Below, in pieces: positions 26,322 to 50,692 of a DNA stretch of 64,000 nt. The position numbers and the translations under genes were made by a program. The stretch is from a virus (Duplodnaviria > Heunggongvirae > Uroviricota > Caudoviricetes), in IMG/VR virus record IMGVR_UViG_3300014205_006828, positions 1-64,000 of that record, one strand, 5' to 3'. Numbering within the stretch: position 1 is the first letter of the stretch; each line of letters starts with the position of its first letter. The notes under the pieces are model-generated. The model made no database searches. It was not told where the DNA came from and worked only from the letters and a program-made list of their open reading frames with translations.

Positions 26322-26394
26322 GCCGATAGAGTTTGCTAGGGTGAACGCAACTTTGGTAAAGTTGAGGTGGTCAGTTCGAATCTGACTTTCGGCT
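26322..26394 (+). tRNA. tRNA-Thr (anticodon GGT)
   Basis: Acceptor GCCGATA/TTTCGGC, anticodon stem CAACT/AGTTG with loop TTGGTAA, T-arm GTCAG-TTCGAAT-CTGAC is perfect. Confidence 0.65.
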
Positions 26395-26423
26395 CAAAAC
26401 TCTGCATAAAAACGCAGAGAAGT

Positions 26424-27110: not shown

Positions 27111-27111
27111 C

Positions 27112-29984: not shown

Positions 29985-30323
29985 ACTAATAACCCAATAT
30001 ATTCATACAGGAATGAGGTAGTTATGCTATAGTTATGCAAACAACCAATAATTATGTTCCGACAATCATTGAACGTGGCGCTCGCCGAGCTACTCGCTAT
30101 GTCTGTAGTGGGGAAAGGTCTATGCGCTACTACAAGAAATCATGTCATCGTTCCTATCGTAGAGTAATAAAACATCGTCTTCATGAAATAACCGTTGGAT
30201 TAAAGGATATAGAAGAATATAATGATGAGCCCGGCCATTGTAAATGTACCAGTTGGGATATTTGGTAGTCGAGCATAATATTCAAGAATACCAATTACTA
30301 TTAGCCAAAGAAAAGAATGATAT

Positions 30324-30406
30324 GGTAGGACAATCCGATTGGCGACGGAACTTGTTTTGAAAACAAGCGAGCGCAAGCCTTGGGGATTCGAATTCCTCTC
30401 CTACCG
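30324..30406 (+). tRNA. tRNA-Ser (anticodon TGA), type II
   Basis: Acceptor GGTAGGA/TCCTACC is perfect. D-stem TCCG/CGGA, anticodon stem CTTGT/ACAAG with loop TTTGAAA, 14-nt variable arm, T-arm GGGGA-TTCGAAT-TCCTC. Confidence 0.7.
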
Positions 30407-30795
30407 CAATAAACGTATCCAGAATGGCGATATATCTATATTAGTAGAATGGTTAGCTAAATAGGGAATAATTGGAAATATAGACCCAAATGCAAGTAAA
30501 CCGCGTTCAGCTCCAGAGCTTTCGTTAGCCTGGGGCTTTTGGGGTAGGTGCCAGCCCTTAGGATCCGTGGGCAGTGGTGACCATGACGGCGAGAAAGAGC
30601 GCAAAGTCGATGAGTAAAGCGGACATGCATATACAGCTTCCCGACAATCCGGAGTAGACGATTGACAGCTGAAACGAGACAGCTAACGCTCGACGGGCGC
30701 GGAGAATGAACAGCACCAGACAGCTGGAAAGACAGCTGACGGCGGGAACAGACCGCATTATCTTCTCTGCATTGACCAACAATTCACCCAAATAT

Positions 30796-30878
30796 GGAGA
30801 GTAAACTTAGTGGGACTAAGCTCTGATTGGAAATTAGATGAGACTTAAACGTTAGTGATTCGATTTCACTGCTCTCCG
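30796..30878 (+). tRNA. tRNA-Ser (anticodon GGA), type II
   Basis: Acceptor GGAGAGT/GCTCTCC, anticodon stem TCTGA/TTAGA with loop TTGGAAA, long variable arm, T-arm AGTGA-TTCGATT-TCACT is perfect. Confidence 0.6.
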
Positions 30879-30890
30879 CAAAAGAATATT

Positions 30891-30981
30891 GGGTAAGATT
30901 ATCCGACAGCTGGCAACGGAACTTCTTTGCTAAAGAAGCGAGCCCCTGAAGGGCCTTTAGGGTTCGACCCCCTATCTTACC
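30891..30981 (+). tRNA. tRNA-Ser (anticodon GCT), type II
   Basis: Acceptor GGTAAGA/TCTTACC is perfect. D-stem TCCG/CGGA, anticodon stem CTTCT/AGAAG with loop TTGCTAA, variable-arm hairpin GCCCCTGAAGGGC, T-arm TAGGG-TTCGACC-CCCTA. Confidence 0.7.
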
Positions 30982-30990
30982 GCAACCCGA

Positions 30991-31479
30991 GTGCATATGA
31001 AAAAAGATACTTTCTACGATCAATATCCACTTGTATTTCCAAAACGCGAACCTGAACAAGGTTTTCATTGTGGTGAGGGATGGTATCAACTTCTGGATTG
31101 TCTATTCGAAGTAATGCAAAAAAATTTGGTTAAACAACCAGAGCCTATAGACTTCCGAATTACATATATTAAAGAGAAGTTCGGTACGTTGAGAGTTGGC
31201 TGCGAACACGCTACCGATTATATTCGAGAAACGGTTATTCAAGCCGAAGAGATGAGTGGCCACATCTGCGAAACATGCGGTGAGTACGGCAAGATTCGAA
31301 ACTCAGCTCATTGGATAAAAGTGCGCTGCGATTCCTGCGAACGAACTCACTTCGCACATCGCAACACGCCACTATTGTCAGAAGCAAAAGCTAGCCTAGA
31401 CGCTGGCATCAAGAGTGCTCAAGAACATCCTGCGATCAGCCTGGGCAGCTTTGCTAAATTCGCCGATGATGAAGAGTAG
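30991..31479 (+). CDS. Hypothetical zinc-finger protein
   Basis: CETCGEYGK...CDSCERTH. Confidence 0.4.
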   Translation: MHMKKDTFYDQYPLVFPKREPEQGFHCGEGWYQLLDCLFEVMQKNLVKQPEPIDFRITYIKEKFGTLRVGCEHATDYIRETVIQAEEMSGHICETCGEYGKIRNSAHWIKVRCDSCERTHFAHRNTPLLSEAKASLDAGIKSAQEHPAISLGSFAKFADDEE

Positions 31480-31769
31480 TTCACCGGCATAGTTCACTAT
31501 TTTGGTGAGTTGGCGTCCATAACCAATTCTGTTTGAGGCACTAAACCTTCTCATTCTTGCAAGCGAAATCAACGATAGCAGCTTCGAGCATGTAATCCTC
31601 GATGTAGAACAGCGGTACAGATGGGGCTGTTTCCGAGGTACGAAAGGCATTCACAATCAATTGTCCAAGGCGCAGATCTGGACACTTGATCCATGATTGA
31701 AAGATCGCCTCTATCATCATACTTTTCTGAGCTACAGTCAGAGCGCGCCCTTCAGGTGGTTGCATTGCC

Positions 31770-31982
31770 TCAATGCACTCTTATTAGTTCAAGATAGTAT
31801 GTTTCATCTTGATCAGTCATGCGTTGAAATACCTTATGGCAATCATGGCACTCAAACACTGATGTTACTTTCAATCCAAGTAGAGTGCCTTGACATTTGG
31901 GACAATGAGCTTCTGAAATTACTGTTTGTAGAAGCGTGGTGCCTATTCCTTCGAGAAGTATTTTTGTATCTAGTGTTTTCAT
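31770..31982 (-). CDS. Hypothetical small zinc-ribbon protein
   Basis: CPKCQG...CHDCHK. Confidence 0.3.
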   Translation of the reverse strand: MKTLDTKILLEGIGTTLLQTVISEAHCPKCQGTLLGLKVTSVFECHDCHKVFQRMTDQDETYYLELIRVH

Positions 31983-32266
31983 GAAATAAGATCTGGCCTT
32001 CCACCTAATCTAGACCGAATGCACCCAAGAAGTATTTGAGATACCGGAAGACCATCCACTCTCTGAATGGTTAGGGGATATGGATTGAGAACGTAATCTT
32101 CTTTAGTATAACCCAAGAATTCAATGATACTGTATACTTCATATTTTATTGCCTGAAATACACTTGCAATAGATTGTCGCAAGGTAGGTTTGTATTCAAA
32201 TTCGTTATTAAGAATCGTTACAGTACAATCATCCATTCTTTTACCCCTGATCATATACAGTAACAT
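31979..32266 (-). CDS. Hypothetical protein
   Basis: 95-aa ORF, translationally coupled to its neighbours. Confidence 0.3.
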   Translation of the reverse strand: MLLYMIRGKRMDDCTVTILNNEFEYKPTLRQSIASVFQAIKYEVYSIIEFLGYTKEDYVLNPYPLTIQRVDGLPVSQILLGCIRSRLGGRPDLIS

Positions 32267-32741
32267 TAATTCCTCTCTTTAATAACTCTTGTTCAATAAG
32301 TGGCTCAATAACACTCCACTCCCCTTGTGCTAATCCTGCTCCGATCCGAGGCATATGTACTGCTGCGGTATGCTGACTGATTTCATCACCAGCTTTACTC
32401 AAGCACTGTTGTAGAGCTTTATAGTCAATCGGCTTAGGATTGTTTGGACCTACGATGCCTTTTTGAGCCACCATGTTGATAACAACTAGGTCGCTCAGAA
32501 TCTGAATTACCTGAATATCACCAAGTAGTAGCTTTCCAAAGCGTTCGCGCCACCACTTACGATACTCTGTTTCAACCTTCGGCCATCGCTTAGAAAGTGC
32601 TCCTGAAAAGCCTGCTCCGTATTTCCCCTCATCATTCACGATTTGGATAATGTAACGGTTGCTACTTCCGAGAGGATTTGTTGCATCGCCCTTTACGAAC
32701 TTGAGAAGGCCTTTGGGATTATGATCACTTGGGTTTACCAT
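32241..32741 (-). CDS. Macro domain protein (ADP-ribose binding/processing)
   Basis: VKGDATNP...IVNDEGKYGAGFSGALSKRWP...VHMPRIGAGLAQGEW matches macro-domain motifs (GDIT; NAAN..L.gGgGVdgAI; iafPaistGiyG). Confidence 0.55.
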   Translation of the reverse strand: MVNPSDHNPKGLLKFVKGDATNPLGSSNRYIIQIVNDEGKYGAGFSGALSKRWPKVETEYRKWWRERFGKLLLGDIQVIQILSDLVVINMVAQKGIVGPNNPKPIDYKALQQCLSKAGDEISQHTAAVHMPRIGAGLAQGEWSVIEPLIEQELLKRGINVTVYDQG

Positions 32742-32811
32742 ATTGTTTCCTACGAAAAGAAGTAGTTTTTGATCTGAAACTACAAAACAGGTACCAGTGC
32801 GCCACTCTGCG

Positions 32812-33042
32812 TTATTTCTTCCGATAGATTATACGACACTTAGTTATATCGAAGGTATCGAGTTCGATATCAACTTTATCACCCTCAACAACCTTAATGT
32901 TATTGGTCCTCATCTTACCAGACAGCTGTCCCATGACTCTTCTAGTGTTGCCATTCTCAAGATCAATGAGAATGGAGAAAAATCCGTTACCGCACGCTTT
33001 ATTAATAAGCCCATTGAATCTTGGTTTTTCACTCGGCATCAA
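32812..33042 (-). CDS. infA: Translation initiation factor IF-1 (bacterial type, S1-like OB fold)
   Basis: NGFFSILIDLENGNTRRVMGQLSGKMRTNNIKVVEGDKVDIELDTFDITKCRIIYR aligns with E. coli IF-1 ([52 protein letters not shown]). Confidence 0.75.
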   Translation of the reverse strand: MMPSEKPRFNGLINKACGNGFFSILIDLENGNTRRVMGQLSGKMRTNNIKVVEGDKVDIELDTFDITKCRIIYRKK

Positions 33043-33600
33043 TCACTCCGTTGTCCCAGTGTACTTGGCAATCAATATATCAACACGTTCCTTGATATTG
33101 GCCTGCTCAATTGGAAGTCCAAAAGCCCAGGCTTCCTCGATTATAAAGTCATTAGGATATGAAACCTTCAGGAACTTTATTGTCCTTAGATTGGTTTCTA
33201 GGTACCCAGAAGATATATATCTAAGAATACCGAAACCTAATAATAGCGGGCTAATATTCCTGACCCAGATATTGTTTTCGAAATAGGAGCTTCTAATCTT
33301 TCCATCATTACCAAGAAGTATAAGTATATTGTTTTGTCCGGAAAGTAGCATCCCCCAATAGCTATGGCGTTCTATCAGGGCTGGGTTTGCCTTCCTAAAA
33401 ACGTCTGTAGTCTTCGTGGAAATGGCTGTGGCTGGATAAACCTTGACCACCCCGTTCTTTAGAAGACGCAGGCGGTTTCCATCAAAATCTCTCCACACAT
33501 GCCAGTCCTCCACCGGTTCCAGGCCTAGCATGTCCACCAGAAGATCGAAGGGGCAATTAAGCGCCGCCCGAGCTGAAGCTATCAACCGTTCCTGCCTCAT
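33043..33600 (-). CDS. Hypothetical protein
   Basis: 185-aa ORF between the IF-1 and PP-loop genes. Confidence 0.4.
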   Translation of the reverse strand: MRQERLIASARAALNCPFDLLVDMLGLEPVEDWHVWRDFDGNRLRLLKNGVVKVYPATAISTKTTDVFRKANPALIERHSYWGMLLSGQNNILILLGNDGKIRSSYFENNIWVRNISPLLLGFGILRYISSGYLETNLRTIKFLKVSYPNDFIIEEAWAFGLPIEQANIKERVDILIAKYTGTTE

Positions 33601-34295
33601 CGCACTCTTCTATATAGCTGTGGTTTATCAGAGAGGCTTGGATATGGCTTGTTCATCTTCTTGTGGCGTGTCAGTTTTTCTCTTTGATGAACCTTAGCAA
33701 TCATAGCCTTCTGTGTATGAATGAAGTAGGGCCAACGAGGATGCCGGTGCGGAGACTCTTCACACGTGATGATCCCGAACATCGCCTCGGCCTCATTGCA
33801 GAACTCAATGTCTGCAACGATATCTGTGGATTCAACCGGCCATAGACCAGGCCACAGAGAATCAGTTATCTCAACAATCTCCGAATACTCAAGGTCAAAC
33901 AGCGGGAAGACATCTGCACTACCCGCCGCGCGCTTTCCGTAGCTGCGATAGTACAGTCCGAACGTTCTGTCTACCGGGCCAACTACAATGCCGTGGTCGT
34001 GCGCTATTTCGTGGCATTGAAGATAGTAGTAACCAGGGTTCTTGATACTGTCAATGGAGTATGTAACATTTCCATTGAAAACATTCTTGATCTCGATAGT
34101 GCTCGTCGGAAAGCTGAGGGCATGAGTTGCAAGGCCACCATAGTTCTCAGTGGCCTTTGAGCAGATGTGAAGCAACAGGGCATCAGAACGAGCGCCATCA
34201 AAACCCACCACAAAAACACTGCGTCCGGCGGCTTTGGCGTATTCTGCCAGCCACTTGGCGAGATGTTCAATGAGTAGGTCTTGGTTGGTGATCAT
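33597..34295 (-). CDS. PP-loop ATP pyrophosphatase family protein, NH3-dependent NAD+ synthetase (NadE)-like. The SGGxDS motif is degenerate (FDGARSD)
   Basis: HLAKWLAEYAKAAGRSVFVVGFDGARSDALLLHICSKATENYGG parallels NadE ([44 protein letters not shown]). Downstream, VGPVDRTF and FPLFDL sit at the GTDHAAE and LLPL positions. Confidence 0.45.
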   Translation of the reverse strand: MITNQDLLIEHLAKWLAEYAKAAGRSVFVVGFDGARSDALLLHICSKATENYGGLATHALSFPTSTIEIKNVFNGNVTYSIDSIKNPGYYYLQCHEIAHDHGIVVGPVDRTFGLYYRSYGKRAAGSADVFPLFDLEYSEIVEITDSLWPGLWPVESTDIVADIEFCNEAEAMFGIITCEESPHRHPRWPYFIHTQKAMIAKVHQREKLTRHKKMNKPYPSLSDKPQLYRRVR

Positions 34296-34525
34296 TTCTT
34301 TTTACTTGATGCGTCCTTCAGTACCTTATCAACAATACCCTGGACATCGAAGTTTGGAGCTTGTGGAATGTCCTCGACTTCCTTGAATTTCTCGACGGCA
34401 TGGGTAGCGATAGCGTCTGCTTTCATAATCGCATGCTGCGCATCGTAATTGGCCGAAGATGTAAACATCGTTGTAACCACACTAGTATATACATGGTACC
34501 AAACTTGATACTCCGGATACTTCAT
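34292..34525 (-). CDS. Hypothetical small protein
   Basis: 77-aa ORF with overlapping stop/start to its neighbours. Confidence 0.3.
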   Translation of the reverse strand: MKYPEYQVWYHVYTSVVTTMFTSSANYDAQHAIMKADAIATHAVEKFKEVEDIPQAPNFDVQGIVDKVLKDASSKKK

Positions 34526-34803
34526 GACACATCCTTCTTCTTCCTGGTCTTCTTAATCACTGGTGTGGATTGGCTCCTACAAATTCGAAGCACTTCCCGA
34601 ACTTCTTCAATCTCTTGTGCTGAACACGCACTGCCACTAGAGTTATTGACCTCTAACCCATAATTATTGGTCTCTTTATTATGGTGAATCAATATCCACA
34701 ATCTTGGGTTTGCGTCCAAGAGAGCTTTGCGATATGAAATGAGGAGGTTTAGATCGCTACTTAGTTCGAACAGGTCTTTGCGTTGTTCAATTGGAATCGG
34801 CAT
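34522..34803 (-). CDS. Hypothetical small protein
   Basis: 93-aa ORF. Confidence 0.3.
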   Translation of the reverse strand: MPIPIEQRKDLFELSSDLNLLISYRKALLDANPRLWILIHHNKETNNYGLEVNNSSGSACSAQEIEEVREVLRICRSQSTPVIKKTRKKKDVS

Positions 34804-34815
34804 ATCTGTCTTTCT

Positions 34816-35403
34816 TTATAGCAAGCCAAGTAACATCATGGCCAGAACATATCCATGACCAACTTTAATCTTTTCATTATCAATCAGCTTATCGACATCA
34901 TACCCATGCACATTGATTCCATGCGCGTCGAAGTCTTGAAGAACCAAACAATCTGCTCCATTCGTTCGAGAACAAACCGATTCAAATGTTTGAGTTAGCT
35001 TCTCGAACGCCTCGGTATTTCGTACTGCATTTGAGTAAAGTGGAATATAGATTTGCCTTCTAGCTTCTATATACCCAAGCTTTCTCCCATCCCATAATGA
35101 GTAAAGCGGCTTGTTTCCTCGACCCATAGGATACCGATCAGCAAACTTCTTAGCCCAGCCCTTTTTAGCCCATTCGAAATACGCATTGCCAGGCTCGTTA
35201 TTTTCATCAGCGTACTCGGTGTACACTTTAGAATATTGCCAGGCATTCTCTACATTTTGAGCCTCATACTCTCCGTACAACTTCACAGGCCCAAGTAGAA
35301 ATGGTGATAAACCACGGCTCCAACCATGAGCGCGTGAAGTTGTGTTGACAATCACCGCATCATCGGAGAACTTGCTAGAGAAGTCTGCTACGATAAGTTT
35401 CAT
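34816..35403 (-). CDS. Putative NADAR (DUF1768, YbiA-like) domain protein. Weak call
   Basis: LSPFLLGPV..., ...ENAWQYSKV and ...WDGRKLGYIEARRQIYIPL loosely follow the YbiA pattern (FSNFA..PI ... EHYFQAQKF ... GKNRLGYLLMELR). Confidence 0.35.
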   Translation of the reverse strand: MKLIVADFSSKFSDDAVIVNTTSRAHGWSRGLSPFLLGPVKLYGEYEAQNVENAWQYSKVYTEYADENNEPGNAYFEWAKKGWAKKFADRYPMGRGNKPLYSLWDGRKLGYIEARRQIYIPLYSNAVRNTEAFEKLTQTFESVCSRTNGADCLVLQDFDAHGINVHGYDVDKLIDNEKIKVGHGYVLAMMLLGLL

Positions 35404-35996
35404 TTGTATACTAACTTAATTCCGCTATTAGGATCTTCGGACAGGATAATCAATCTTTGTTTGAAATCGAACTCCAGATCGTTTTTCAGATCAGTATACT
35501 CTTTTTTCCTATCGGTTGACTTCTCAATCAGCCTGGAAAGAGATCCTCGTGGATCAAGGTATGTTCCGTATAGATATTGGATTCTCTGTTTGGAATTGGC
35601 CTCTTGCACTTCTCGTAGGGCTTGTGCTTTGAATTTCTCAACATTACTTTCTATTACTGTGCTTTTTAGAAGCCCACCATTAATGGAAAGGAACATATCT
35701 TCTTCATACATAGATCCATATCCGGCATGAACATAGTTAAGAAGATTTCCCTTCCAAACATGAAGTTCTTGAGAAACCCAATCGGCAAAAAATGGGCCTT
35801 TACCCTTCATGACTCCGCCAACCACTCGATTGAGATATAGCTTGTTATCTACAATCTCCCACTCCCCAACGTACCCTCGATAGTTTGAGGTTTTCGTAGA
35901 CCAACCAGCTTCAGCCTTGTCATGGAGGCTTGGGTTGGATACCATCTCTAACTCCTCACCATCAATGATGAGGATTTCAGGTTGTTGCGCCGTCAT
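35400..35996 (-). CDS. Hypothetical protein
   Basis: 198-aa ORF. Confidence 0.4.
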   Translation of the reverse strand: MTAQQPEILIIDGEELEMVSNPSLHDKAEAGWSTKTSNYRGYVGEWEIVDNKLYLNRVVGGVMKGKGPFFADWVSQELHVWKGNLLNYVHAGYGSMYEEDMFLSINGGLLKSTVIESNVEKFKAQALREVQEANSKQRIQYLYGTYLDPRGSLSRLIEKSTDRKKEYTDLKNDLEFDFKQRLIILSEDPNSGIKLVYK

Positions 35997-36807
35997 CTTC
36001 CAATGCCTTCTTCAAGTTACTGTACAAGACGTCAGGATCGTTATCCGATAACCCGCTCATCTGGCCGTCATTCAACTCAATCAGAATCCATTCACCAGCG
36101 GCTGTCTTTGCCACATCAATCACGTAGTACGTTGGCGGCTCACTCAGCTCCGTATTCTGAATCTTATCAATGATAGCATTCAAGAACTCGCGCGGCACCT
36201 CATCTGGATTAATAGAAATACCCTCGGCGCGGATGTCATCCGAATGTGAACTCCAATAGAAGCCGCCGCTAAGTATCGTCTTCTTGTATACAAAAAACCT
36301 ATACTCTCTGGTAATTTGTAGTCCTTGAAGCCCGCTAGAAAGAACCTCAAGAGGCACGTACTTTCGAATGTAGATCTTCTGGTACTGAAGCATTGAATCA
36401 GCCATAAGCCGCCCATGCACTTCAATGGCCGCCTTCTTATCCTTGGCAAAACAGTGGGTATTCCAAAGGAACTTTTTGGAGTTTGTTTCGCCCTTTAATA
36501 CAAATGGACCATCAGTAGGAATGTTGTGAAGCTCATCCCATGTATGAGGAGTAAAAGAACTCAAATCCATATACCAATTACCAAGATCTGCAATATACCT
36601 ATGTTGCTCATAGGTATTAATCATCTTGCATCCAACAATATTTAGGTCACGTTCCTGTTCGAGATAAAACGGGAGGGCTGAAAACCTAGAAATTACTAAA
36701 TTGTCTCTAAGCAACATACGACTATCAACACAAGCAAAATACTTACGCACTACTTGTTCTTCTTGTCTCCAATCAATATCATTGCGAAACAAAATTACTG
36801 GTTTCAT
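35977..36807 (-). CDS. ATP-grasp fold enzyme (putative carboxylate-amine ligase)
   Basis: The C-terminal WILIELNDGQMSGLS resembles the ATP-grasp hhEhN..PG motif. Preceding beta-rich segments (YRFFVYKKTILSGG) fit the fold. Confidence 0.45.
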   Translation of the reverse strand: MKPVILFRNDIDWRQEEQVVRKYFACVDSRMLLRDNLVISRFSALPFYLEQERDLNIVGCKMINTYEQHRYIADLGNWYMDLSSFTPHTWDELHNIPTDGPFVLKGETNSKKFLWNTHCFAKDKKAAIEVHGRLMADSMLQYQKIYIRKYVPLEVLSSGLQGLQITREYRFFVYKKTILSGGFYWSSHSDDIRAEGISINPDEVPREFLNAIIDKIQNTELSEPPTYYVIDVAKTAAGEWILIELNDGQMSGLSDNDPDVLYSNLKKALEDDGATT

Positions 36808-36892
36808 TTTTACCTATATTCACATATACCTGTTTATCCAGGTATAAAACTCTTTCAATGTCTTATCGGATTTAGATAAGTGTATGTACTTC

Positions 36893-37165
36893 TTACGTTC
36901 CATTGCAGAATTCGTTTATCTCACCAAAAACCCTAGCGTCCTCAACAGCTATCAAATCATCAATGGCTCTCTTTTGAGCAGATTCAATGATATCCTTTTC
37001 TGCACACCTGATCATTTCTCTAAAGGCCAGATACTTCCCCAACAACGCCCTGCGAATATCTGCCTTGGAGATTTTCCTTACAAGCTCTCCAAACTCATTC
37101 TCGCGCCAACCACTAGGCAACATGGCCTTGATGGCCTTTCGCTTTTCACGATGCTTCTTTCCCAT
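36893..37165 (-). CDS. Hypothetical basic protein
   Basis: The start was moved to MGKKHREKRK so it does not overlap tRNA-Pro. Confidence 0.3.
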   Translation of the reverse strand: MGKKHREKRKAIKAMLPSGWRENEFGELVRKISKADIRRALLGKYLAFREMIRCAEKDIIESAQKRAIDDLIAVEDARVFGEINEFCNGT

Positions 37166-37169
37166 ATTG

Positions 37170-37243
37170 TCGGAATGGTCAGATTCGAACTGACGGTCTC
37201 CAGTACCCAAAACTGGCGGATTACCAAACTTTCCTACATTCCG
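37170..37243 (-). tRNA. tRNA-Pro (anticodon TGG)
   Basis: Reverse complement folds as acceptor CGGAATG/CATTCCG (perfect), anticodon stem CCAGT/ACTGG with loop TTTGGGT, T-arm GTCAG-TTCGAAT-CTGAC (perfect). Confidence 0.7.
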
Positions 37244-37249
37244 ATGGCA

Positions 37250-38023
37250 TCACACAGATGCCGCTTGAACCTGAATAGACCCATCAAGGGTATTCCGAAT
37301 CCAAGTCTTAGTATCTTCCGGATCCCTTACTTGAACGTAAACAAGACCCATCTCTATAGCGGCATAATCACTGCCTCCCTTGAAGATGGCATCGCCTACA
37401 TACAAAAGATCATCCTTGCTGGCACGTAGCTTCTTCATCAACTCATCAATGCCGTACTTCTTATTAATGCCCTTAGCAGAGACATCAATGGAAGTCTTCC
37501 CAGCTACGCGCACCTCGTAAATTGGAAGTTTGCGTCGTAGAACATCGGCCAACACCCGGCGCTTACTACCATCCACATCCCACTTCTCCTTGGCTTCAAG
37601 AGGTGCTCTCTGGCCAAGTGCGGAGAAGGTTACTTTGGAATCACAACTCTCCACCTGCTTCCCCCAAAGCTTCTGTGGCTGTATAAACCCAGATTCCACG
37701 ATAGCCTCTTCAATCATGGCGTTGATGCGGTCTACCTCGCGAGAGCTAAGCTTATGCTGATAGGCCGCAACCCAACCATACTTCCCCCAGGATTGGAACA
37801 GGCTGCCACCTGACGCTGGGAGAATGTAGAGGTTGTTTAGAAGCTTCTGATCAATATGTAGAAGGTTATCGATCTGTTTGTTTACCTGTTTCCAAGATGC
37901 TCCAGAAATGATGGCAATATTACAACTGGCTAACAACTTGCTGAGCAATGCTATCATTTCCTCATCAAGTGCGTCTTTGGAAATGGTCAGGGTTCCGCCA
38001 AGATCAAAAACAATCGTCTTCAT
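37250..38023 (-). CDS. HAD-superfamily hydrolase (Cof/phosphomannomutase-like)
   Basis: MKTIVFDLGGTLT is HAD motif I with the second Asp replaced by Gly. Later motifs follow: ..GASW.. and ..VGDAIFKGGSD.. . The start was moved to ATG at 38023. Confidence 0.5.
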   Translation of the reverse strand: MKTIVFDLGGTLTISKDALDEEMIALLSKLLASCNIAIISGASWKQVNKQIDNLLHIDQKLLNNLYILPASGGSLFQSWGKYGWVAAYQHKLSSREVDRINAMIEEAIVESGFIQPQKLWGKQVESCDSKVTFSALGQRAPLEAKEKWDVDGSKRRVLADVLRRKLPIYEVRVAGKTSIDVSAKGINKKYGIDELMKKLRASKDDLLYVGDAIFKGGSDYAAIEMGLVYVQVRDPEDTKTWIRNTLDGSIQVQAASV

Positions 38024-38057
38024 ACTATCTCTCTTGTTTATTCGAAGTTTCCAAACA

Positions 38058-38136
38058 GTCCCCAGACCAGGGCTCGCACCTGGATCGTCCCTAAACAATT
38101 AGGGGCTCTTTACAACTTGAGCTATCCGGGGGAAGT
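38058..38136 (-). tRNA. tRNA-like element with aberrant anticodon loop (6 nt) and atypical T-loop. Possible pseudo-tRNA or processed/edited tRNA
   Basis: Reverse complement folds as acceptor CCCCGGA/TCTGGGG, D-arm TAGCTCAAGTTGTAAAGAGC, stem CCCTA/TAGGG around ATTGTT, T-stem CCAGG-TGCGAGC-CCTGG. Confidence 0.35.
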
Positions 38137-40288: not shown

Positions 40289-41950
40289 GTGAAAAAATTA
40301 CTAAGATTTGCTCATCTGTATTCTCTAGCAATTGAGAAATTGAATATGGACCTGTCTCTAACCGCCACAGAAACTAAGATCTTTTCCCTACTCAAAGCAG
40401 TCGTCGCCGAGAAGACCCCAGAAACCATTCTTCGGGGCGCAGGAGGCTGGGTGCGCGATAAGCTACTGAGCAAAGACTCTAATGATATTGATATCGCAGT
40501 CAATAACATGACCGGAGAAGCATTTGCTAATTTGGTCAGTGAATATATGGCTGAGCATGGATTAAAGAAGCAAAGCGTTACCGTCGTCGAAGCAAACCCC
40601 GATCAATCGAAGCACCTAGCCACCGCCATGATCAGGCTGTTTGGACTCCCTATCGACTTCGTTAATCTGCGCACAGAGACCTACGCAGATAGCCGAATCC
40701 CAACCATGGAAATGGGCACCGCCGAAGAGGATGCTCAACGTAGGGATCTTACCATCAACTCGTTATTCTACAATATTAATAGCGGCGAAATCGAGGATTT
40801 TGTTGGCGGCATCAATGACCTTCGTGCAGGCATTGCGCGCACTCCCCTTGACCCAGTACAAACTTTCTTGGACGACCCGCTACGAATTCTTCGAACGGTC
40901 AGATTTGCGTCTAAGTATGGCCTGGACTTAGACCCAGCACTCATTGCCGCTACACACGATCCAAAAGTGCAAGAAGCCTTCAAGACCAAGATCTCTAATG
41001 AACGTGTCTGGGCCGAACTAGCTGGTAAGAAGGACGGCGACCACTACAAGCCAGGTGCTCTGATTGGTCCGAATCCAACACGCGCCGTAGAGCTTCTGAA
41101 GGAGCTTGGATTGATGGAGGCTGTCTTCGACCCAACCGATGAGGAGGTGAAGGATCTGGCCCCAAAACCGCTTCCGCCGCGCGGTACTGATGACTACGAA
41201 CGCCTCAACGCACCACCACCGAAAGAAGAGCGAATGGTGCCTTGGGAAACTCCACAGAACAATCCACATCACCAATTCGACATTTGGAATCATACCCTGA
41301 GCGTGGTGAAGAATCTGATTGATCAAACCCCAAAACCAATTACCGAAGATCAGGAGACTTACCTAGTGCGCAATCTAGCGGCACTGCTCCATGACATCGG
41401 GAAGCGGTATACTGGCATTCAAGGAGTTTCCGAGAATGGTAGCCATACTTCATACCACGGACATGAAGAAGCATCAGCTAAGCTTGCTCAGGCTGTATTG
41501 ACCAGGCTACATGCTCCGCAGGATATTATCAAAAGAGTTGTTGATTTGATTTCTGTGCATTTGCGGCCACATACCCTTCTTGAAAATGGGCGTGGGCGCA
41601 ATTACCGGAGGTTCGTTCGAGACTACCCAGATTGGAGGCACAGTGTTGACATTGCAATTGCCGATAATCTTGGCAAGCAAAACTTCAATCCGGAAGAGGC
41701 CGAACTGGAAAGGCAAAAGTATGAAGGCCTTCGCGGAAACATTCAGAAGGCAATGGAATGGGCTGGTAAAGACCCCAACTCCACCTCAGCTATCCCGCGC
41801 CCAATCTCCGGAAAAGACCTTATCGCAATGGGTCTTAAGCCGGGGCCAATCATGGGACAGATCCTCAATGCGCTCGACGAAGCTCTGCTTGACAATCCAA
41901 GTATGAGCAAAGAAGAGGCTTTGGAATTTGCTCGGACGTTTATTGCATAG
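40289..41950 (+). CDS. cca: Class II tRNA nucleotidyltransferase (CCA-adding enzyme) with C-terminal HD domain
   Basis: Head-domain motif GGWVRDKLLSKDSNDIDIAV (GGxVRD...DxD), RDLTINSLFYN, and HD motif LAALLHDIGK. Confidence 0.75.
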   Translation: MKKLLRFAHLYSLAIEKLNMDLSLTATETKIFSLLKAVVAEKTPETILRGAGGWVRDKLLSKDSNDIDIAVNNMTGEAFANLVSEYMAEHGLKKQSVTVVEANPDQSKHLATAMIRLFGLPIDFVNLRTETYADSRIPTMEMGTAEEDAQRRDLTINSLFYNINSGEIEDFVGGINDLRAGIARTPLDPVQTFLDDPLRILRTVRFASKYGLDLDPALIAATHDPKVQEAFKTKISNERVWAELAGKKDGDHYKPGALIGPNPTRAVELLKELGLMEAVFDPTDEEVKDLAPKPLPPRGTDDYERLNAPPPKEERMVPWETPQNNPHHQFDIWNHTLSVVKNLIDQTPKPITEDQETYLVRNLAALLHDIGKRYTGIQGVSENGSHTSYHGHEEASAKLAQAVLTRLHAPQDIIKRVVDLISVHLRPHTLLENGRGRNYRRFVRDYPDWRHSVDIAIADNLGKQNFNPEEAELERQKYEGLRGNIQKAMEWAGKDPNSTSAIPRPISGKDLIAMGLKPGPIMGQILNALDEALLDNPSMSKEEALEFARTFIA

Positions 41951-42197: not shown

Positions 42198-42438
42198 CTC
42201 CTACTATTACCGTCTTTACAATCTTCGGAGCACCAATTAGTCCCCGAGGATTTACGACACCAACACCATTACACTCCAGCAATTGATACGCTATTAGGTC
42301 AGGAAGAACTACTGGCATAGGGCCTTTCCGCTCATGTCTCACTGGAGTGATTGGCGTCATCTCTAAAAGAATCTCTGATATTGGTTTCAGATCCTCATCA
42401 GTAATGTCAGGGTATCCTTGTCGCTTGATAGTTGTCAT
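42184..42438 (-). CDS. Hypothetical small protein
   Basis: 84-aa ORF. Confidence 0.3.
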   Translation of the reverse strand: MTTIKRQGYPDITDEDLKPISEILLEMTPITPVRHERKGPMPVVLPDLIAYQLLECNGVGVVNPRGLIGAPKIVKTVIVGDEDD

Positions 42439-44594
42439 AGCATTACATTGTGAGGATGCGACTCAGTCAGGCCAGCATTCGATATAACCACGAAATGAGG
42501 ATCGGCTTTCAAGTCAGCTAGATTCTTGGATCCTTGGTATGAACATCCACTCTTGATGCCCTCCACCAAACGCAGTACAACATCACGCACACTGCTTTTG
42601 TATGGAACGAGCGCAACGACACCTTCGACATGCTTTTGCTTGTGTGTTGAGCTGCCAGCGTAGCGCTTGAACTTCTTGCCTTGAAACTGGATGATTTCTC
42701 CTGGGGCTTCGTCTGTGCCGGCAAACAAGTTGCCAATCATCACAAGCTCCGCGAATGCCAGCGCCTTGACGCAATCACCTGCGCTCTTAATTCCACCATC
42801 CGCAATGAACATCGGCCACTGATCATCTCTCATGCTGTAGTTGCCATCATTGCAGACAATATCCAGCGCACTGAGTTGTGGATATCCGTTGCCTGTTTCA
42901 ATGCGGGTAGTGCAGAGAGAATTGTGTACTATAGCGTTATCAGCAATAAAGCTATGTGTTTCACAATCAATCGTCAAATCAAATACCGACACCTCATCAT
43001 TTATATTTGTATACTCTAACAATTTAGATATTTGATAGTTGTCTATAACTCGTTTTTCTGCTGTGTTGTTTATTCTTGACACATAAGGCGTATTGAAATT
43101 TTCAATATTCGCACCTTTTAGATTTCCAGATGTCACTTTATCTTGCTGATTGTTTGGGAACACCTTGGTAAGAAGATATGTGACTATATTAAATAGTTCT
43201 ATTAGGTGAATTGATGTATTTTTGAAATTCTTTCTACCACCAGATTCTATACTACCATCCGAGTCCATCAAACCATCGTGTATGCCTTGTAAATACCCAA
43301 TATTATTTACAATGTATTCTGGTGGTAGATATTTCTCTGTTCTCTTTCCAAAACCAGATAAGAATTCCGCAAACGGTTTATGATACAAAGAACAAACAAT
43401 TATGTTTTCTTTAGCTTTAATTTTCAACGCCCTTCCTGTAAGGGTCTTGATACACTCCGCTAATCGATGTGCGATGTGAAGTTCATCAACTCCAAAATAC
43501 CAATGAATAGCTCCTGTATTAGTACGCCCGTTATTAACAATCATGGCGTGCCCATCTCCAAGGAAAGTCCCAAAAATATATCCTACCTCTATTGTTGGTT
43601 CAATGACAAAATCAACACTTACCTTAATTGAAGAATGCCCATTCCAGCCATCGCGTATCACAATTTCCTTTTTGAAACTATTCGGAAATTCAAACTCAAT
43701 ATTATTTGGCATTAGTAATGCAACTTTATTAATGTTGCCAATTTCTTGCCATTTTAGTTTGCTTTGTTTTGGTGTAGTTTTCGATTGCGTTTTTAGAGCC
43801 TTTGAATAACCAATACTTTCAAGTGTTGTTTTAGAAATACTACTTAAATCACCAATGAAATATTGATGATCAGGCGTTACATAAGTAGCTTTATATGAAA
43901 TAGAGTTGCGAATCTTAGATACCTTACGAATGCCGGTGCAAAATGCTTTCAGTACACTTTTCGGTTTGCCATCCATATTGATAATACGCTCGCCCGGTTT
44001 GATATCCTCAATGTTTTTATACAACCCATTAGACATTAATATTCTGGTACCAGCCCCAAAACAACCTGGCCCTACGCCAATTTTGATAATATCCGCACCA
44101 GCATTCCAGAGCAAAGAAGCTCCTTTGGCAGTTACTACATTCCCGGCAATAAGGAGAATGCCAGGAAATGTGGTGTGAACTGCCGATACGAACTCAGCCA
44201 CTTTGGTATGATCCCCATGAGCAACATCTACACAAATTATCTTACAACCAATTCTATTCAGTTCATGTATGAGGTCCAGATCTTTCGGCTTGATACCTAC
44301 TGAGGCACCAATCGCACCAGGAAATCCATGGGATGCTGCACGAGCTTGATCGTAGTTTGTGAACAGCTCTCCATAGTCATCGAAGCGGTGCAGTATGGCC
44401 AGACCTCCAAGTTCAGCGATTGTTTCTGCCATTTTTACATCTGTCACTGTTGCCATATTTGCACTGACAAAAGGTATCTTAAGTTCAATACCTTTTGGTA
44501 AAGAAACCGATAGATCAACCTCCTCCCTAGATCCAATCGAGCTGTGTTTTGGGATCAGAAGAACATCATCAAAAGTATAGCCTTGAGTGAACAT
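42435..44594 (-). CDS. guaC: GMP reductase / IMP dehydrogenase-family (CBS-less, GuaC-like) enzyme interrupted by a 381-aa LAGLIDADG intein
   Basis: Exteins: ...ICVDVAHGDH...AGNVVTAKGASLLWNAGADIIKIGVGPG | SLCTTRIETGNGYPQLSA...MFIADGG... matches the GuaC/IMPDH catalytic region (VGIGPGSVCTTR..GVGYPQLSAV). The insert begins with Cys and ends ..IVHN|S, and carries two LAGLIDADG blocks (FGTFLGDGHA; IHDGLMDSDGSI). Confidence 0.75.
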   Translation of the reverse strand: MFTQGYTFDDVLLIPKHSSIGSREEVDLSVSLPKGIELKIPFVSANMATVTDVKMAETIAELGGLAILHRFDDYGELFTNYDQARAASHGFPGAIGASVGIKPKDLDLIHELNRIGCKIICVDVAHGDHTKVAEFVSAVHTTFPGILLIAGNVVTAKGASLLWNAGADIIKIGVGPGCFGAGTRILMSNGLYKNIEDIKPGERIINMDGKPKSVLKAFCTGIRKVSKIRNSISYKATYVTPDHQYFIGDLSSISKTTLESIGYSKALKTQSKTTPKQSKLKWQEIGNINKVALLMPNNIEFEFPNSFKKEIVIRDGWNGHSSIKVSVDFVIEPTIEVGYIFGTFLGDGHAMIVNNGRTNTGAIHWYFGVDELHIAHRLAECIKTLTGRALKIKAKENIIVCSLYHKPFAEFLSGFGKRTEKYLPPEYIVNNIGYLQGIHDGLMDSDGSIESGGRKNFKNTSIHLIELFNIVTYLLTKVFPNNQQDKVTSGNLKGANIENFNTPYVSRINNTAEKRVIDNYQISKLLEYTNINDEVSVFDLTIDCETHSFIADNAIVHNSLCTTRIETGNGYPQLSALDIVCNDGNYSMRDDQWPMFIADGGIKSAGDCVKALAFAELVMIGNLFAGTDEAPGEIIQFQGKKFKRYAGSSTHKQKHVEGVVALVPYKSSVRDVVLRLVEGIKSGCSYQGSKNLADLKADPHFVVISNAGLTESHPHNVML
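42921..44063 (-). mobile_element. Intein with LAGLIDADG homing-endonuclease domain, inserted 3 residues upstream of the catalytic Cys of the GuaC/IMPDH-like enzyme
   Basis: Splice junctions GVGPG/CFGAG... and ...AIVHN/SLCTTR. Codon coordinates were verified against the sequence. Confidence 0.7.
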
Positions 44595-49383: not shown

Positions 49384-49390
49384 TTGAATT

Positions 49391-50692
49391 TTACCTAAGA
49401 TTTAAAACGAATTTCTTTTGTCCACAATCCCAAATTTTAACTAATCCATTGTCATATCCAGAATTTCCTGGATATTTCATTCTATGGAATGTGTTTTTGA
49501 AATCTGTCCACTTGAAACTTACATGATTTGAAGCTTCAACAAATCCAATATTTACAAGGGAAGATCCTGTGCCATATCTACAATCAACAAAACTTATTAT
49601 TTTTTTTGGATTATAGTCACAGGCAACCCTTTTTAATAATTTACTAAAACCACCAACAACCAATGTATCTATTTTGTTTGCAAATCTAGATATTTCAACA
49701 AATTCTTTTTTGTGAATAATTTGCATACACGCGACAATATCACCATCAAACACCAGAGAGTATATCTTGCCTGTGCCCTTAGACATCAAATGATTATTAG
49801 CGAACCAACCACAATCATCAGGCAACACATTAACAGCACACTTCCTAGCAAATAGTTTGCTGTTTATTATATTCAGCTTTGCGCGTATGATAGATTTGAC
49901 AATGTTTGTTTTTTGAAGAATTTCATCACCCCTAAAAAACAAAGATGTATATCCATATAAATAATACGATGCTTGTTTATTTAGGTGATAAGACCTATCT
50001 TTGATGTAAAGATCGGAGTGATGTTTTAAACCATCTGATTCTATAATTAGATTACCAAGTCTAAAATCTGGTCTATATGATGTACCTGGCAATTGCTTAT
50101 CATACACAAAATTCACACCAAGATCATTTAAGATATTTTCAATAACAAATTCTATATCTGTTTTAGATTTATTCCATTTAAGGGCAGAATCAACACCAAC
50201 TGATTTTATCAACTCAAGAAATTTTGAATAACTAAAATTAGGCTCATAACCATCAAAAATATTTCTAGCAGATAACCCGTTTAGATCGTAACTAATCCCT
50301 CTGGCTATTTTTGTGTTATTAATTTTCGCAATCACACATTCTGCTTTGGATGGATGATCTACTCCAAACCTTTTCAAATTAGTATTTTTGATTTTGTCTT
50401 GTATATCTTTATTTAATAGAGGCGTAGATGCTCCAAATCTCTCTATACAGGTATTGGCGCGTTTATCTTTGGTACTTTGTTTTCTAGACCCTAGTACTTT
50501 GTTAGCCGCTGAACGTTTCGGATGTCGCCTCTCCCCATAGAGAACTTTGGAATAAGTTCCATAAAATTTACCATACTCACTATCCTCAAATTCCGCAATT
50601 GAATGTGCAGATGTATAAGATAGCAAATCAAGATAAGGGAATTTTTCTTTTACTTTAATTCTAGCTTCTTCTAACGTTTGTCTTCGCGCCAT
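49391..50692 (-). CDS. Hypothetical protein with a Vsr/PD-(D/E)xK-like nuclease-like segment. Possible homing endonuclease
   Basis: YRPDFRLGNLIIESDGLKHH resembles the endonuclease core (rpDF...iEvDG..wH). The rest is unassigned. Confidence 0.3.
   Translation of the reverse strand: MARRQTLEEARIKVKEKFPYLDLLSYTSAHSIAEFEDSEYGKFYGTYSKVLYGERRHPKRSAANKVLGSRKQSTKDKRANTCIERFGASTPLLNKDIQDKIKNTNLKRFGVDHPSKAECVIAKINNTKIARGISYDLNGLSARNIFDGYEPNFSYSKFLELIKSVGVDSALKWNKSKTDIEFVIENILNDLGVNFVYDKQLPGTSYRPDFRLGNLIIESDGLKHHSDLYIKDRSYHLNKQASYYLYGYTSLFFRGDEILQKTNIVKSIIRAKLNIINSKLFARKCAVNVLPDDCGWFANNHLMSKGTGKIYSLVFDGDIVACMQIIHKKEFVEISRFANKIDTLVVGGFSKLLKRVACDYNPKKIISFVDCRYGTGSSLVNIGFVEASNHVSFKWTDFKNTFHRMKYPGNSGYDNGLVKIWDCGQKKFVLNLR

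What the first reader, a model, noticed from the sequence alone, without database searches (positions are those of the whole stretch)
42921..44063. LAGLIDADG intein inserted beside the catalytic cysteine of a CBS-less GuaC/IMPDH-family enzyme
The host gene is colinear with GMP reductase: extein junction GVGPG|...|SLCTTRIETGNGYPQLS, where GuaC has GIGPGSVCTTR, with the active-site Cys three residues after the splice site. The 381-aa insert starts with Cys, ends in HN followed by Ser, and has two LAGLIDADG blocks. Inteins in IMPDH/GuaC are far less commonly reported than those in RNR, DNA polymerase or helicase. Splicing is required to reconstitute the catalytic loop, so the enzyme is conditionally active.
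Basis: partly seen in the sequence, partly recalled or inferred. Interest (0 to 1): 0.5.

Follow-up and report, generated by a model that had tools for sequence, protein, structure and literature searches.

The report
Homing intein in a phage IMPDH-like gene
A self-splicing, mobile protein insert (an intein carrying a LAGLIDADG homing endonuclease) really does interrupt the active-site loop of a phage purine-metabolism enzyme, but it belongs to a widespread family of inteins at this exact site, so it is a clean example, not a new kind of thing.

Summary
ORF 42435..44594 (-) encodes a 719-aa precursor. Residues 178-558 (window 42921..44063) form a 381-aa intein with Cys1, TxxH, His-Asn and Ser+1, plus two LAGLIDADG motifs. 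It lies two residues before the catalytic Cys of an IMPDH/GMPR-family barrel.

A syntenic relative contig (L001) carries the same gene without the insert. The deletion is exactly these 1143 bp, and the junction peptide DIIKIGVGPG|SLCTTRIETG is identical. An AlphaFold model (pLDDT 90.8) matches PI-SceI and VMA-type intein endonucleases, and I-DmoI.

The element is not rare. Relatives sit at the same site in:
- 86 protein clusters;
- at least 26 IMG/VR viral contigs (huge phages and giant-virus MAGs);
- among 163 relatives in species-representative genomes (junctions not individually checked), including an intact guaB in Roseithermus sacchariphilus.

IMPDH has been a published intein host since 2009, through the IMPDH-1 split intein with native junction GGG/SIC.

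The host enzyme has no CBS domain and no flap Arg-Tyr dyad. It reaches no NCBIfam IMPDH or GMPR equivalog cutoff, so its reaction is unresolved. "Conditionally active" is unsupported beyond the trivial need for splicing.

Verdict: a new member of a known kind, of low to moderate interest.

The parts
42435..44594 (-). Precursor ORF, 719 aa plus stop codon: N-extein, intein, C-extein
   Evidence: ORF list and translation. Pfam IMPDH appears in two stretches either side of the Hint hits.
44064..44594 (-). N-extein, residues 1-177, ending ...DIIKIGVGPG. This is the N-terminal half of the (beta/alpha)8 barrel, with no CBS subdomain.
   Evidence: Alignment A2 shows the CBS insertion of E. coli GuaB has no counterpart here.
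42921..44063 (-). Intein, 381 aa: Hint splicing domain plus LAGLIDADG homing endonuclease. GC is 34.5%.
   Evidence: Clean 1143-bp insertion relative to L001. Hom_end_hint above the gathering score. AF2 model pLDDT 90.8. Foldseek best hits are TliVMA, PI-SceI, PhoVMA and PI-PfuI inteins.
44025..44063 (-). Intein block A, CFGAGTRILMSNG, with the nucleophile Cys1
   Evidence: C1, G5, T6, L9 and M10 are invariant in 16 relatives. It aligns to the PI-SceI N-terminus, E 5.8e-5.
43851..43892 (-). Intein block B, KATYVTPDHQYFIG, with the TxxH motif (T63, H66)
   Evidence: T63 and H66 are invariant.
43545..43583 (-). First LAGLIDADG motif, GYIFGTFLGDGHA, with catalytic Asp170
   Evidence: G165, L168, G169, D170 and G171 are invariant. 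It lies on helix 158-170 of the model. I-DmoI fold match.
43248..43292 (-). Second LAGLIDADG motif, LQGIHDGLMDSDGSI, with catalytic Asp269
   Evidence: G264, L265, S268, D269 and G270 are invariant. It lies on helix 255-269. Weak Pfam LAGLIDADG_3 hit, E 0.045.
42921..42992 (-). Intein blocks F and G, VSVFDLTIDCETHSFIADNAIVHN, with D362, H370, penultimate His380 and terminal Asn381
   Evidence: D362, C367, T369, H370, S371, F372, H380 and N381 are invariant. HSFIADNAIVHN recurs in almost every homologue.
42438..42920 (-). C-extein, residues 559-719, starting with Ser+1. It includes the catalytic loop SLCTTR (Cys561 at 42912..42914), a very short flap and an IMPDH-like C-terminal ESHPH.

Best explanation
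This is a canonical class-1 intein carrying a two-motif LAGLIDADG homing endonuclease. It is inserted in frame into the catalytic-cysteine loop (GxGPG|S-L-C-T-T-R) of a CBS-less IMPDH/GMP-reductase-family enzyme encoded by a large, tRNA-rich uncultured phage genome.

Splicing (inferred from conserved residues, not shown). After translation the 719-aa precursor splices itself. Cys1 makes a thioester. Ser+1 attacks it to give a branched ester. Asn381 cyclises to release the intein. An O-N shift then restores the peptide bond and yields a 338-aa enzyme with an intact GVGPGSLCTTR loop.

Homing (inferred). The excised intein, through its LAGLIDADG domain, most likely cuts intein-less alleles of the same gene in co-infecting relatives. 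One such allele exists in L001. Repair then copies the intein in.

The extreme conservation of the target codons explains why allelic inteins occupy this same site in bacteria, archaea, phages and giant viruses.
For: Boundaries:
- blastn of the syntenic contig L001 against the window breaks exactly at window 44065 and 42920.
- The spliced gene aligns without gaps across the junction, and the junction peptide is identical.
- Intein-free homologues of 337-343 aa are 82-89% identical to the spliced extein.

The gene is functional: dN/dS of the spliced gene against L001 is about 0.04. This implies that the intein-bearing copy makes an active product.

Splicing residues: Cys1, T63/H66, D362, H370, H380, N381 and Ser+1 are all present and invariant in 16 relatives of 39-60% identity.

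Fold:
- Hom_end_hint is above its gathering score.
- The AF2 model has pLDDT 90.8 and pTM 0.89.
- Foldseek top hits are endonuclease-bearing inteins: TliVMA E 1.6e-15, then PI-SceI, PhoVMA, PI-PfuI and PI-TkoII. The centre of the model matches I-DmoI with target-normalised TM about 0.70.

Allelic family:
- 86 homologues, essentially all inside PF00478 hosts, with identical junction motifs.
- 26 of 27 checked IMG/VR loci are at the same site.
- 163 loci in species-representative genomes. One is an intact 899-aa guaB with CBS domains in the complete Roseithermus sacchariphilus chromosome.

Precedent: the IMPDH-1 split intein has native junction GGG/SIC and an essential Ser+1, and it splices fast (PMC2677866; PMC7090010 supplement; PMC11168065).
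Against: No experiment shows splicing or DNA cleavage for this protein.

The Pfam Intein_splicing hit (29.5 bits) is below its gathering score of 35.8. LAGLIDADG_3 reaches only E 0.045. NCBIfam has no hit for the intein.

The nearest intein relative is only 59-60% identical. No recent homing event is therefore documented, and the endonuclease could be decaying even though its catalytic Asp residues are intact.
Confidence: 0.88

Rival explanations
1. The intein still splices but its endonuclease is inactive. It would then be a fixed, no longer mobile passenger at the late stage of the homing cycle.
For: The closest intein is only about 60% identical, while the closest extein (89%) lacks the intein, so no recent transfer is visible. 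Mini-inteins of 138-154 aa at the same site show that endonuclease loss happens in this family. The Pfam LAGLIDADG hit is sub-threshold.
Against: Both LAGLIDADG motifs and both catalytic Asp residues (D170, D269) are invariant across 16 full-size relatives. The endonuclease domain is modelled with high confidence and matches I-DmoI. The ORF is uninterrupted over 381 codons.
Confidence: 0.25
2. Splicing is conditional, for example redox-gated through Cys1, the family-invariant block-F Cys367 or the host Cys+3. The intein would then act as a post-translational switch on purine metabolism during infection.
For: Cys1, Cys367 (invariant) and the catalytic Cys at +3 cluster in sequence around the splice junctions. 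From my own knowledge, not retrieved here, disulfide-trapped and stress-sensitive inteins are known in other hosts.
Against: Nothing in the data points to regulation. The same allele sits in the presumably essential guaB of a cultured bacterium. The IMPDH-1 intein at this same site splices constitutively and fast in vitro (PMC11168065). The position next to an active-site residue is explained by homing-site conservation alone.
Confidence: 0.08
3. The insert is not a functional intein. It would be a non-splicing Hint-domain insertion or a gene on its way to becoming a pseudogene.
For: There is no experimental proof of splicing. The host enzyme clade is atypical, with no CBS domain and no flap dyad.
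Against: All splicing residues are intact. The reading frame is uninterrupted over 719 codons. The exteins are under strong purifying selection (dN/dS 0.04). A 381-aa insertion in the catalytic loop would abolish activity unless it were removed.
Confidence: 0.03

Closest known systems
IMPDH-1 (and IMPDH-2, -3) naturally split inteins from GOS metagenomes (Dassa et al. 2009, PMC2677866; widely used as a protein-ligation tool)
   Same: Same host family and same insertion point, immediately before the Ser of the S-[IL]-C-T-T-R catalytic loop. The native junction GGG/SIC compares with GPG/SLC here, and the viral locus L008 has GGG|...|SIC. Both have Cys1, a terminal VVHN/IVHN and a Ser+1 nucleophile. 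Both probably come from phage.
   Different: IMPDH-1 is split into two genes with a free-standing Vsr-like endonuclease gene between them. The window's intein is contiguous and carries an internal LAGLIDADG endonuclease. Sequence similarity is only at the general intein level: 26% over 84 residues at E 3e-7, and hhalign probability 78%.
Contiguous LAGLIDADG inteins at the same site in cellular guaB genes and viral IMPDH-like genes. These are database entries, one named by JGI as 'IMP dehydrogenase/GMP reductase/intein/homing endonuclease'. Examples: Roseithermus sacchariphilus CP030158.1, Woesearchaeota, Gaiellaceae, Ktedonobacterales.
   Same: 39-60% identity over the full 381 aa, the same junctions, the same domain order and the same invariant residues.
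   Different: Most sit in canonical IMPDH with CBS domains and the flap Arg-Tyr dyad. The window's host belongs to the short-flap, CBS-less viral clade. I found no paper in the searchable library that describes this contiguous family.
PI-SceI (yeast VMA1 intein) and the archaeal VMA inteins TliVMA and PhoVMA
   Same: Overall architecture, a Hint domain interrupted by a LAGLIDADG endonuclease. They are the best structural matches: E 1.6e-15 to 1e-11, query-normalised TM 0.5-0.67. The N-terminal 40 residues align at sequence level.
   Different: Different host protein (V-ATPase subunit A). Only 13-16% identity over the structure. PI-SceI is larger (454 aa).
Bacterial IMP dehydrogenase (GuaB) and GMP reductase (GuaC), as candidate families for the host enzyme
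   Same: Full-length PF00478 barrel and the catalytic loop G-x-G-P-G-S-x-C-T-T-R. The best PDB sequence matches are CBS-deleted bacterial IMPDH constructs (5upy, 240 bits). The enzyme is colinear with type-2 GMPR PRK05458.
   Different: No CBS subdomain. The flap is reduced to about 7 residues and has no Arg-Tyr dyad. The C-terminal ESHPH is IMPDH-like and absent from GuaC. All NCBIfam equivalog cutoffs are missed.

Membership tests
Intein (class 1, Hint fold) | In-frame insertion with precise boundaries, absent from orthologous alleles | tested here: met
   L001 lacks exactly window 42921..44063. The junction peptide is identical. Intein-free homologues are 82-89% identical.
Intein (class 1, Hint fold) | N-terminal Cys/Ser (block A) and TxxH (block B) | tested here: met
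   Cys1, T63 and H66 are present and invariant in 16 relatives.
Intein (class 1, Hint fold) | Blocks F and G: conserved Asp and His, penultimate His, terminal Asn, and a Ser/Thr/Cys at +1 | tested here: met
   D362, H370, H380, N381 and Ser559 (+1).
Intein (class 1, Hint fold) | Hint fold | tested here: met
   Hom_end_hint scores 35.2 bits against a gathering score of 32.1. The AF2 model matches solved inteins at E 1.6e-15. Intein_splicing PF14890 is sub-threshold (29.5 against 35.8).
Intein (class 1, Hint fold) | Autocatalytic protein splicing | not testable with these tools
   Only indirect evidence: the exteins are under purifying selection (dN/dS 0.04).
LAGLIDADG homing endonuclease (two-motif, monomeric) | Two LAGLIDADG helices, each ending in a catalytic acidic residue | tested here: met
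   FLGDG (D170) and MDSDG (D269) are invariant and lie on helices 158-170 and 255-269.
LAGLIDADG homing endonuclease (two-motif, monomeric) | Profile match to a curated LAGLIDADG family | tested here: inconclusive
   PF14528 scores E 0.045 and 14.5 bits against a cutoff of 22.5. Some homologues carry a precomputed PF14528 hit.
LAGLIDADG homing endonuclease (two-motif, monomeric) | Pseudo-dimeric alpha-beta-beta-alpha-beta-beta-alpha fold | tested here: met
   I-DmoI chains match at E about 1e-6, target-normalised TM 0.65-0.71, rmsd 3.2-4 A.
LAGLIDADG homing endonuclease (two-motif, monomeric) | Site-specific cleavage of the intein-less allele | not testable with these tools
   The candidate target is the L001 junction.
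IMPDH-site allelic inteins (site of the IMPDH-1 split intein) | Insertion immediately before the Ser of the S-x-C-T-T-R catalytic loop of a PF00478 protein | tested here: met
   GVGPG|C...HN|SLCTTR. The same junction is seen in the homologues and in 26 of 27 viral loci. IMPDH-1 has native exteins GGG/SIC.
IMPDH-site allelic inteins (site of the IMPDH-1 split intein) | Specific sequence relatedness to IMPDH-1 | tested here: inconclusive
   BLASTP gives 26% over 84 aa at E 3e-7. hhalign gives probability 78% over 68 columns. This is no more than generic intein-block similarity.
IMPDH-site allelic inteins (site of the IMPDH-1 split intein) | Split gene arrangement with a free-standing endonuclease ('fractured gene') | tested here: not met
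   A single continuous ORF with an internal LAGLIDADG domain.
IMP dehydrogenase (GuaB, TIGR01302) | Equivalog score cutoff | tested here: not met
   252.6 bits against a cutoff of 481.5.
IMP dehydrogenase (GuaB, TIGR01302) | Mobile flap with the water-activating Arg-Tyr dyad. That this dyad defines IMPDH is established knowledge of IMPDH enzymology, recalled from memory. | tested here: not met
   The flap reads GSSTHKQ-KHVEG. E. coli GuaB reads [28 protein letters not shown]. There is no [DS]RY in the C-extein.
IMP dehydrogenase (GuaB, TIGR01302) | CBS (Bateman) subdomain | tested here: not met
   No counterpart to GuaB's CBS insertion. No PF00571 hit.
GMP reductase (GuaC; PRK05458, TIGR01306, PRK05096, TIGR01305) | Equivalog score cutoffs | tested here: not met
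   220.5 against 344, 199.4 against 465.65, 196.4 against 397, and 193.9 against 492.15.
GMP reductase (GuaC; PRK05458, TIGR01306, PRK05096, TIGR01305) | CBS-less barrel of about 330-350 aa with a catalytic Cys loop and a short flap | tested here: met
   338 aa, colinear with PRK05458 (residues 5-325 to profile positions 5-319 of 327). This feature does not by itself establish the reaction.

The most novel reading that the evidence does not exclude
The window's element may be a contiguous, endonuclease-bearing counterpart of the IMPDH-1 split intein. It would belong to one intein lineage that has repeatedly crossed between canonical cellular guaB genes (with CBS domain and flap) and a flap-less viral IMPDH-like clade in phages and giant viruses. 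If so, this single site records the whole intein life cycle: full-size, mini and split forms. A further possibility is that the family-invariant block-F Cys367, together with Cys1 and the catalytic Cys+3, makes splicing redox-conditional and so gates the enzyme during infection.
Probability: 0.1. Interest if true: 0.5.

Novelty: new member of a known kind. Interest (0 to 1): 0.25.

Why it matters
It gives a cleanly delimited natural pair for splicing and homing assays: an intein-plus allele in the window and an intein-minus allele in L001, in the same phage lineage.

It also shows that the IMPDH catalytic-loop site is a widely used intein landing site across bacteria, archaea, phages and giant viruses. 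Until now that site was known in the literature mainly through the IMPDH-1 split intein used as a biotechnology tool.

A contiguous Cys1/Ser+1 intein from this site could serve as a scaffold for new engineered inteins, or as an outgroup for working out how IMPDH-1 became split. None of this changes how inteins are understood.

The more open biological question is a side issue. It is what reaction the flap-less, CBS-less viral IMPDH-like enzyme catalyses.

Tried and rejected
1. DNA (blastn, words of 11 bases) and protein (tblastn) searches of the INPHARED phage collection with the gene and with the intein found nothing. The intein family is absent from deposited phage records at that sensitivity. 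The extein has only 32-42% identical relatives there.

2. NCBIfam gave no hit for the intein and no equivalog for the extein. A clean IMPDH-or-GuaC assignment was therefore abandoned.

3. The Pfam LAGLIDADG profile on the isolated endonuclease region was sub-threshold. I replaced it with structure prediction and fold search.

4. A first MAFFT alignment of the full gene against L001 misplaced the gap. I redid it with the spliced sequence and with blastn.

5. I asked whether the low GC of the intein dates a recent acquisition. I rejected this as evidence, because the intein is AT-richer than its exteins in nearly all relatives.

6. I suspected a systematic N-terminal truncation of cellular hosts, with N-exteins of only 24-76 aa. 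Inspection of Roseithermus (L054) shows an intact 899-aa gene, so the truncation is a fragment or gene-calling artefact.

7. Specific orthology to IMPDH-1 could not be shown beyond the shared site.

8. Literature searches for intein with IMP dehydrogenase, IMPDH, GuaB, GMP reductase and inosine found only the split-intein papers.
Full report
**1. What is there**

The window contains one long ORF on the minus strand, 42435..44594, of 719 codons. My own translation places GVGPG at residues 173-177, a Cys at residue 178, and VHN at 556-558 followed by SLCTTR. The insert is therefore residues 178-558, 381 aa, at window 42921..44063.

The insert is 34.5% GC. The N-extein is 44.4% and the C-extein 49.6%.

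With the insert removed, the 338-aa concatenation matches Pfam IMPDH/GMPR (PF00478) from profile position 1 to 345 of 345 at E 1e-91. In the unspliced protein the same profile is matched in two stretches, with the Hint-family hits between them.

**2. Is it an intein?**

Four independent lines say yes.

(a) Empty-site allele.
- The closest homologues of the spliced extein are 337-343 aa proteins, 82-89% identical, with no insert.
- One of them, P0088, lies on a 38.7-kb ENA contig (L001) that is syntenic with the window: Cpn10, the IMPDH-like gene, two small ORFs and a CCA-adding enzyme.
- In blastn, L001 7745-10530 aligns to window 46853-44065, and L001 10532-11129 aligns to window 42920-42320. 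The relative therefore lacks precisely the 1143 bp of the proposed intein.
- The spliced gene aligns to L001 at 78% nucleotide identity. Only a 3-nt length difference separates them, and the junction peptide DIIKIGVGPG|SLCTTRIETG is identical.

(b) Catalytic residues. An alignment of 16 full-size relatives, 39-60% identical, leaves these residues invariant:
- Cys1, G5 and T6 (block A);
- T63 and H66 (block B, TxxH);
- D362, C367, T369, H370, S371 and F372 (block F);
- V379, H380 and N381 (block G).
Residue +1 is Ser.

(c) Profiles. Hom_end_hint PF05203 scores 35.2 bits against a gathering score of 32.1. Intein_splicing PF14890 is just below threshold (29.5 against 35.8). The first 40 residues align to PI-SceI at E 5.8e-5.

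(d) Structure.
- An AlphaFold2 model built on that alignment has mean pLDDT 90.8 and pTM 0.89.
- Foldseek against the PDB returns endonuclease-bearing inteins first: TliVMA 7qsu (E 1.6e-15, TM 0.67-0.70), then PI-SceI, PhoVMA, PI-PfuI and PI-TkoII.
- The central domain alone matches the monomeric LAGLIDADG enzyme I-DmoI, with target-normalised TM about 0.70 and rmsd 3.2-4 A.

**3. The endonuclease**

Each lies on a predicted helix (158-170 and 255-269). Each ends in an Asp (D170, D269) that is invariant in the family, together with the flanking glycines.

The curated Pfam LAGLIDADG_3 profile reaches only E 0.045. The assignment therefore rests on the motifs and the fold, not on that profile. 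Whether the enzyme still cuts DNA cannot be decided here.

**4. The gene is in use**

Between the intein-bearing allele (spliced) and the intein-free L001 allele, pN is 0.072 and pS is 0.69. This gives dN/dS of about 0.04, with dS near saturation.

An enzyme with 381 residues lodged in its catalytic-Cys loop can stay under such constraint only if the insert is removed. This is the best indirect evidence that splicing works. The mechanism itself is inferred from conserved residues and from the established class-1 intein pathway. It runs from the Cys1 thioester, through Ser+1 transesterification and Asn381 cyclisation, to the O-N shift. It is not shown here.

**5. How unusual is it?**

- Protein database. 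A search with the intein alone found 86 protein clusters at E 1e-3 or better, virtually all carrying PF00478. Every one in which a junction is visible has the same junctions: G[IV]GPG|CF.AGTR[IV]L... and ...HSFIADNAIVHN|S[IL]C[TS]TR.
- Size range. Intein sizes run from 138 to 390 aa, so both mini-inteins and full-size forms occupy the site.
- Viral contigs. A pattern-limited scan of IMG/VR found 37 loci. Of the 27 I checked, 26 sit at the same point. These include contigs of 240-405 kb (huge phages) and giant-virus MAGs.
- Cellular genomes. A scan of one genome per species found 163 loci. The lineages include Woesearchaeota, Methanosarcinales, Ktedonobacterales, Gaiellaceae, Iamiaceae, Gemmataceae, Myxococcota, Deinococcus and Proteobacteria.
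- A cultured example. In the complete chromosome of Roseithermus sacchariphilus the host is an intact 899-aa guaB with CBS domains, the DRY flap and a 44%-identical intein at VKVGIGPG|C...HN|SICTTR.

In the literature I could search, IMPDH appears as an intein host only in Dassa et al. 2009 (PMC2677866). That paper described three "fractured" IMPDH loci with split inteins and a free-standing Vsr-like endonuclease, and called IMPDH a new intein host. IMPDH-1 has since become a standard fast split intein (PMC11168065).

Its native local exteins are listed as GGG/SIC (PMC7090010 supplement). That is the same site as GPG/SLC here, and viral locus L008 actually reads GIGGG|C...HN|SICTTR.

Sequence similarity between the window's intein and IMPDH-1 (sequence) is modest. 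BLASTP gives 26% over 84 residues at E 3e-7, and hhalign gives probability 78%. I therefore claim a shared site, not demonstrated orthology.

I found no paper describing the contiguous LAGLIDADG family. JGI's automatic annotation of one member does read "IMP dehydrogenase/GMP reductase/intein/homing endonuclease".

**6. Which enzyme is the host?**

In favour of IMPDH by overall score:
- The best solved-structure relatives are CBS-deleted bacterial IMPDH constructs (5upy, 240.6 bits). GMP reductases score lower (1ypf, 173.5 bits).
- NCBIfam's best score is IMPDH TIGR01302 at 252.6 bits, against GMPR PRK05458 at 220.5 bits. Both are far below their equivalog cutoffs of 481.5 and 344.
- The C-terminal GLTESHPHN resembles GuaB's GIQESHVHD and has no counterpart in GuaC.

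In favour of GMPR by architecture, from the alignment with E. coli GuaB and GuaC and two phage GMPR-annotated proteins:
- There is no CBS subdomain.
- The mobile flap is almost deleted: GSSTHKQ-KHVEG, against [28 protein letters not shown] in GuaB.
- The Arg-Tyr dyad is therefore missing. IMPDH uses it to activate water (established IMPDH enzymology, recalled from memory).

The same split shows up among intein hosts. One group has short-flap, no-RY C-exteins of about 160 aa starting SLC[ST]TRIETGNG. The other has canonical RY C-exteins of about 185-195 aa starting SICTTRVVAGVG. Both carry this intein family, and intein identity to the window (37-45%) is similar to extein identity (39-51%).

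I therefore file the host as an IMPDH/GMPR-superfamily enzyme of unresolved reaction. It is probably not a canonical IMPDH.

**7. Genomic setting**

The window looks like part of a large uncultured phage genome:
- 14 tRNA genes;
- a CCA-adding enzyme whose best match among deposited phages is a 735-kb uncultured phage, at 31% identity;
- a ribonucleotide reductase that itself carries an HNH-type intein;
- a free-standing homing endonuclease.

Close homologues of the extein sit on contigs of 200-460 kb.

The lineage is rich in mobile endonuclease elements. Relative to L001, the window has gained or retained the intein and the free-standing endonuclease gene at 49391..50692. L001 in turn has a NUMOD3 ORF that the window lacks.

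The intein is AT-richer than its exteins, but so are nearly all its relatives. This is therefore a property of the element and not a dating signal.

**8. Verdict**

The suggestion of "conditional activity" has no support beyond the trivial requirement for splicing. The sister allele sits in a presumably essential guaB of a cultured bacterium, and IMPDH-1 at this site splices constitutively.

This is a well-preserved new member of a known, widespread but little-described allelic intein family. Its practical value is a natural intein-plus and intein-minus pair for splicing and homing assays. Interest is low to moderate (0.25).

Noticed in passing
window 58757..62140 (-): The ribonucleotide reductase large subunit (1127 aa) carries a second intein, of a different type. 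Intein_splicing PF14890 covers residues 204-475 (62 bits) and contains an HNH_3 endonuclease at 322-357.
   Followed up: partly
window 49391..50692 (-): A free-standing homing endonuclease gene of 433 aa, matching DUF559 (listed only as a protein of unknown function; Vsr-like by my recollection) plus DUF7487, PHROG 'homing endonuclease' and HNH. Window 49384..50691 is absent from the syntenic contig L001, so it is an insertion or deletion between conserved genes. Dassa et al. described a Vsr-like endonuclease next to the IMPDH split inteins; whether this ORF is of that kind was not tested.
   Followed up: partly
L001 3822..4313: The relative contig carries a 163-aa NUMOD3/HTH ORF, probably another homing endonuclease. 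It lies between genes that are adjacent in the window (L001 3838-4357 has no counterpart; window 52454 continues directly to 52423).
   Followed up: no
window 5426..8176 (+): A 916-aa ORF matches the major vault protein shoulder domain (PF11978, E 4.6e-27) and a vault repeat (PF17795). This is an unusual domain for a phage-like genome.
   Followed up: no
window 3314..38131 (14 loci) and 40289..41950 (+): There are 14 tRNA genes scattered among ORFs, including one tRNA-like call with an undetermined anticodon '(tg)' at 38058..38131. A CCA-adding enzyme (PolyA_pol plus HD) lies next to the intein-bearing gene.
   Followed up: no
window 42438..42920 (C-extein); homologues P0087-P0206: The whole viral clade of this enzyme has the flap reduced to about 7 residues, with no Arg-Tyr dyad, yet keeps an IMPDH-like C-terminal ESHPH. 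It passes no IMPDH or GMPR equivalog cutoff, so its reaction is unknown.
   Followed up: partly
window 42963..42965 (intein Cys367): A Cys in block F (IDCETHSF) is invariant in all 16 full-size relatives. From memory, it is not part of the general intein consensus. I could not measure its distance to Cys1 in the model.
   Followed up: no
L029 1765..4476 (IMG/VR 3300033233_000001, 298-kb contig): A 29%-identical intein of the same architecture sits in a different host. By eye this is an RtcB-like RNA ligase, with motifs HRKGAT and CHGAGR and junction ...GRPCLIPG|C...HN|SMGAAS. I did not check it with profiles.
   Followed up: partly
window 18540..20207 (+): A 555-aa ORF has a penicillin-binding-protein-type transglycosylase domain (PF00912, E 2e-38).
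   Followed up: no
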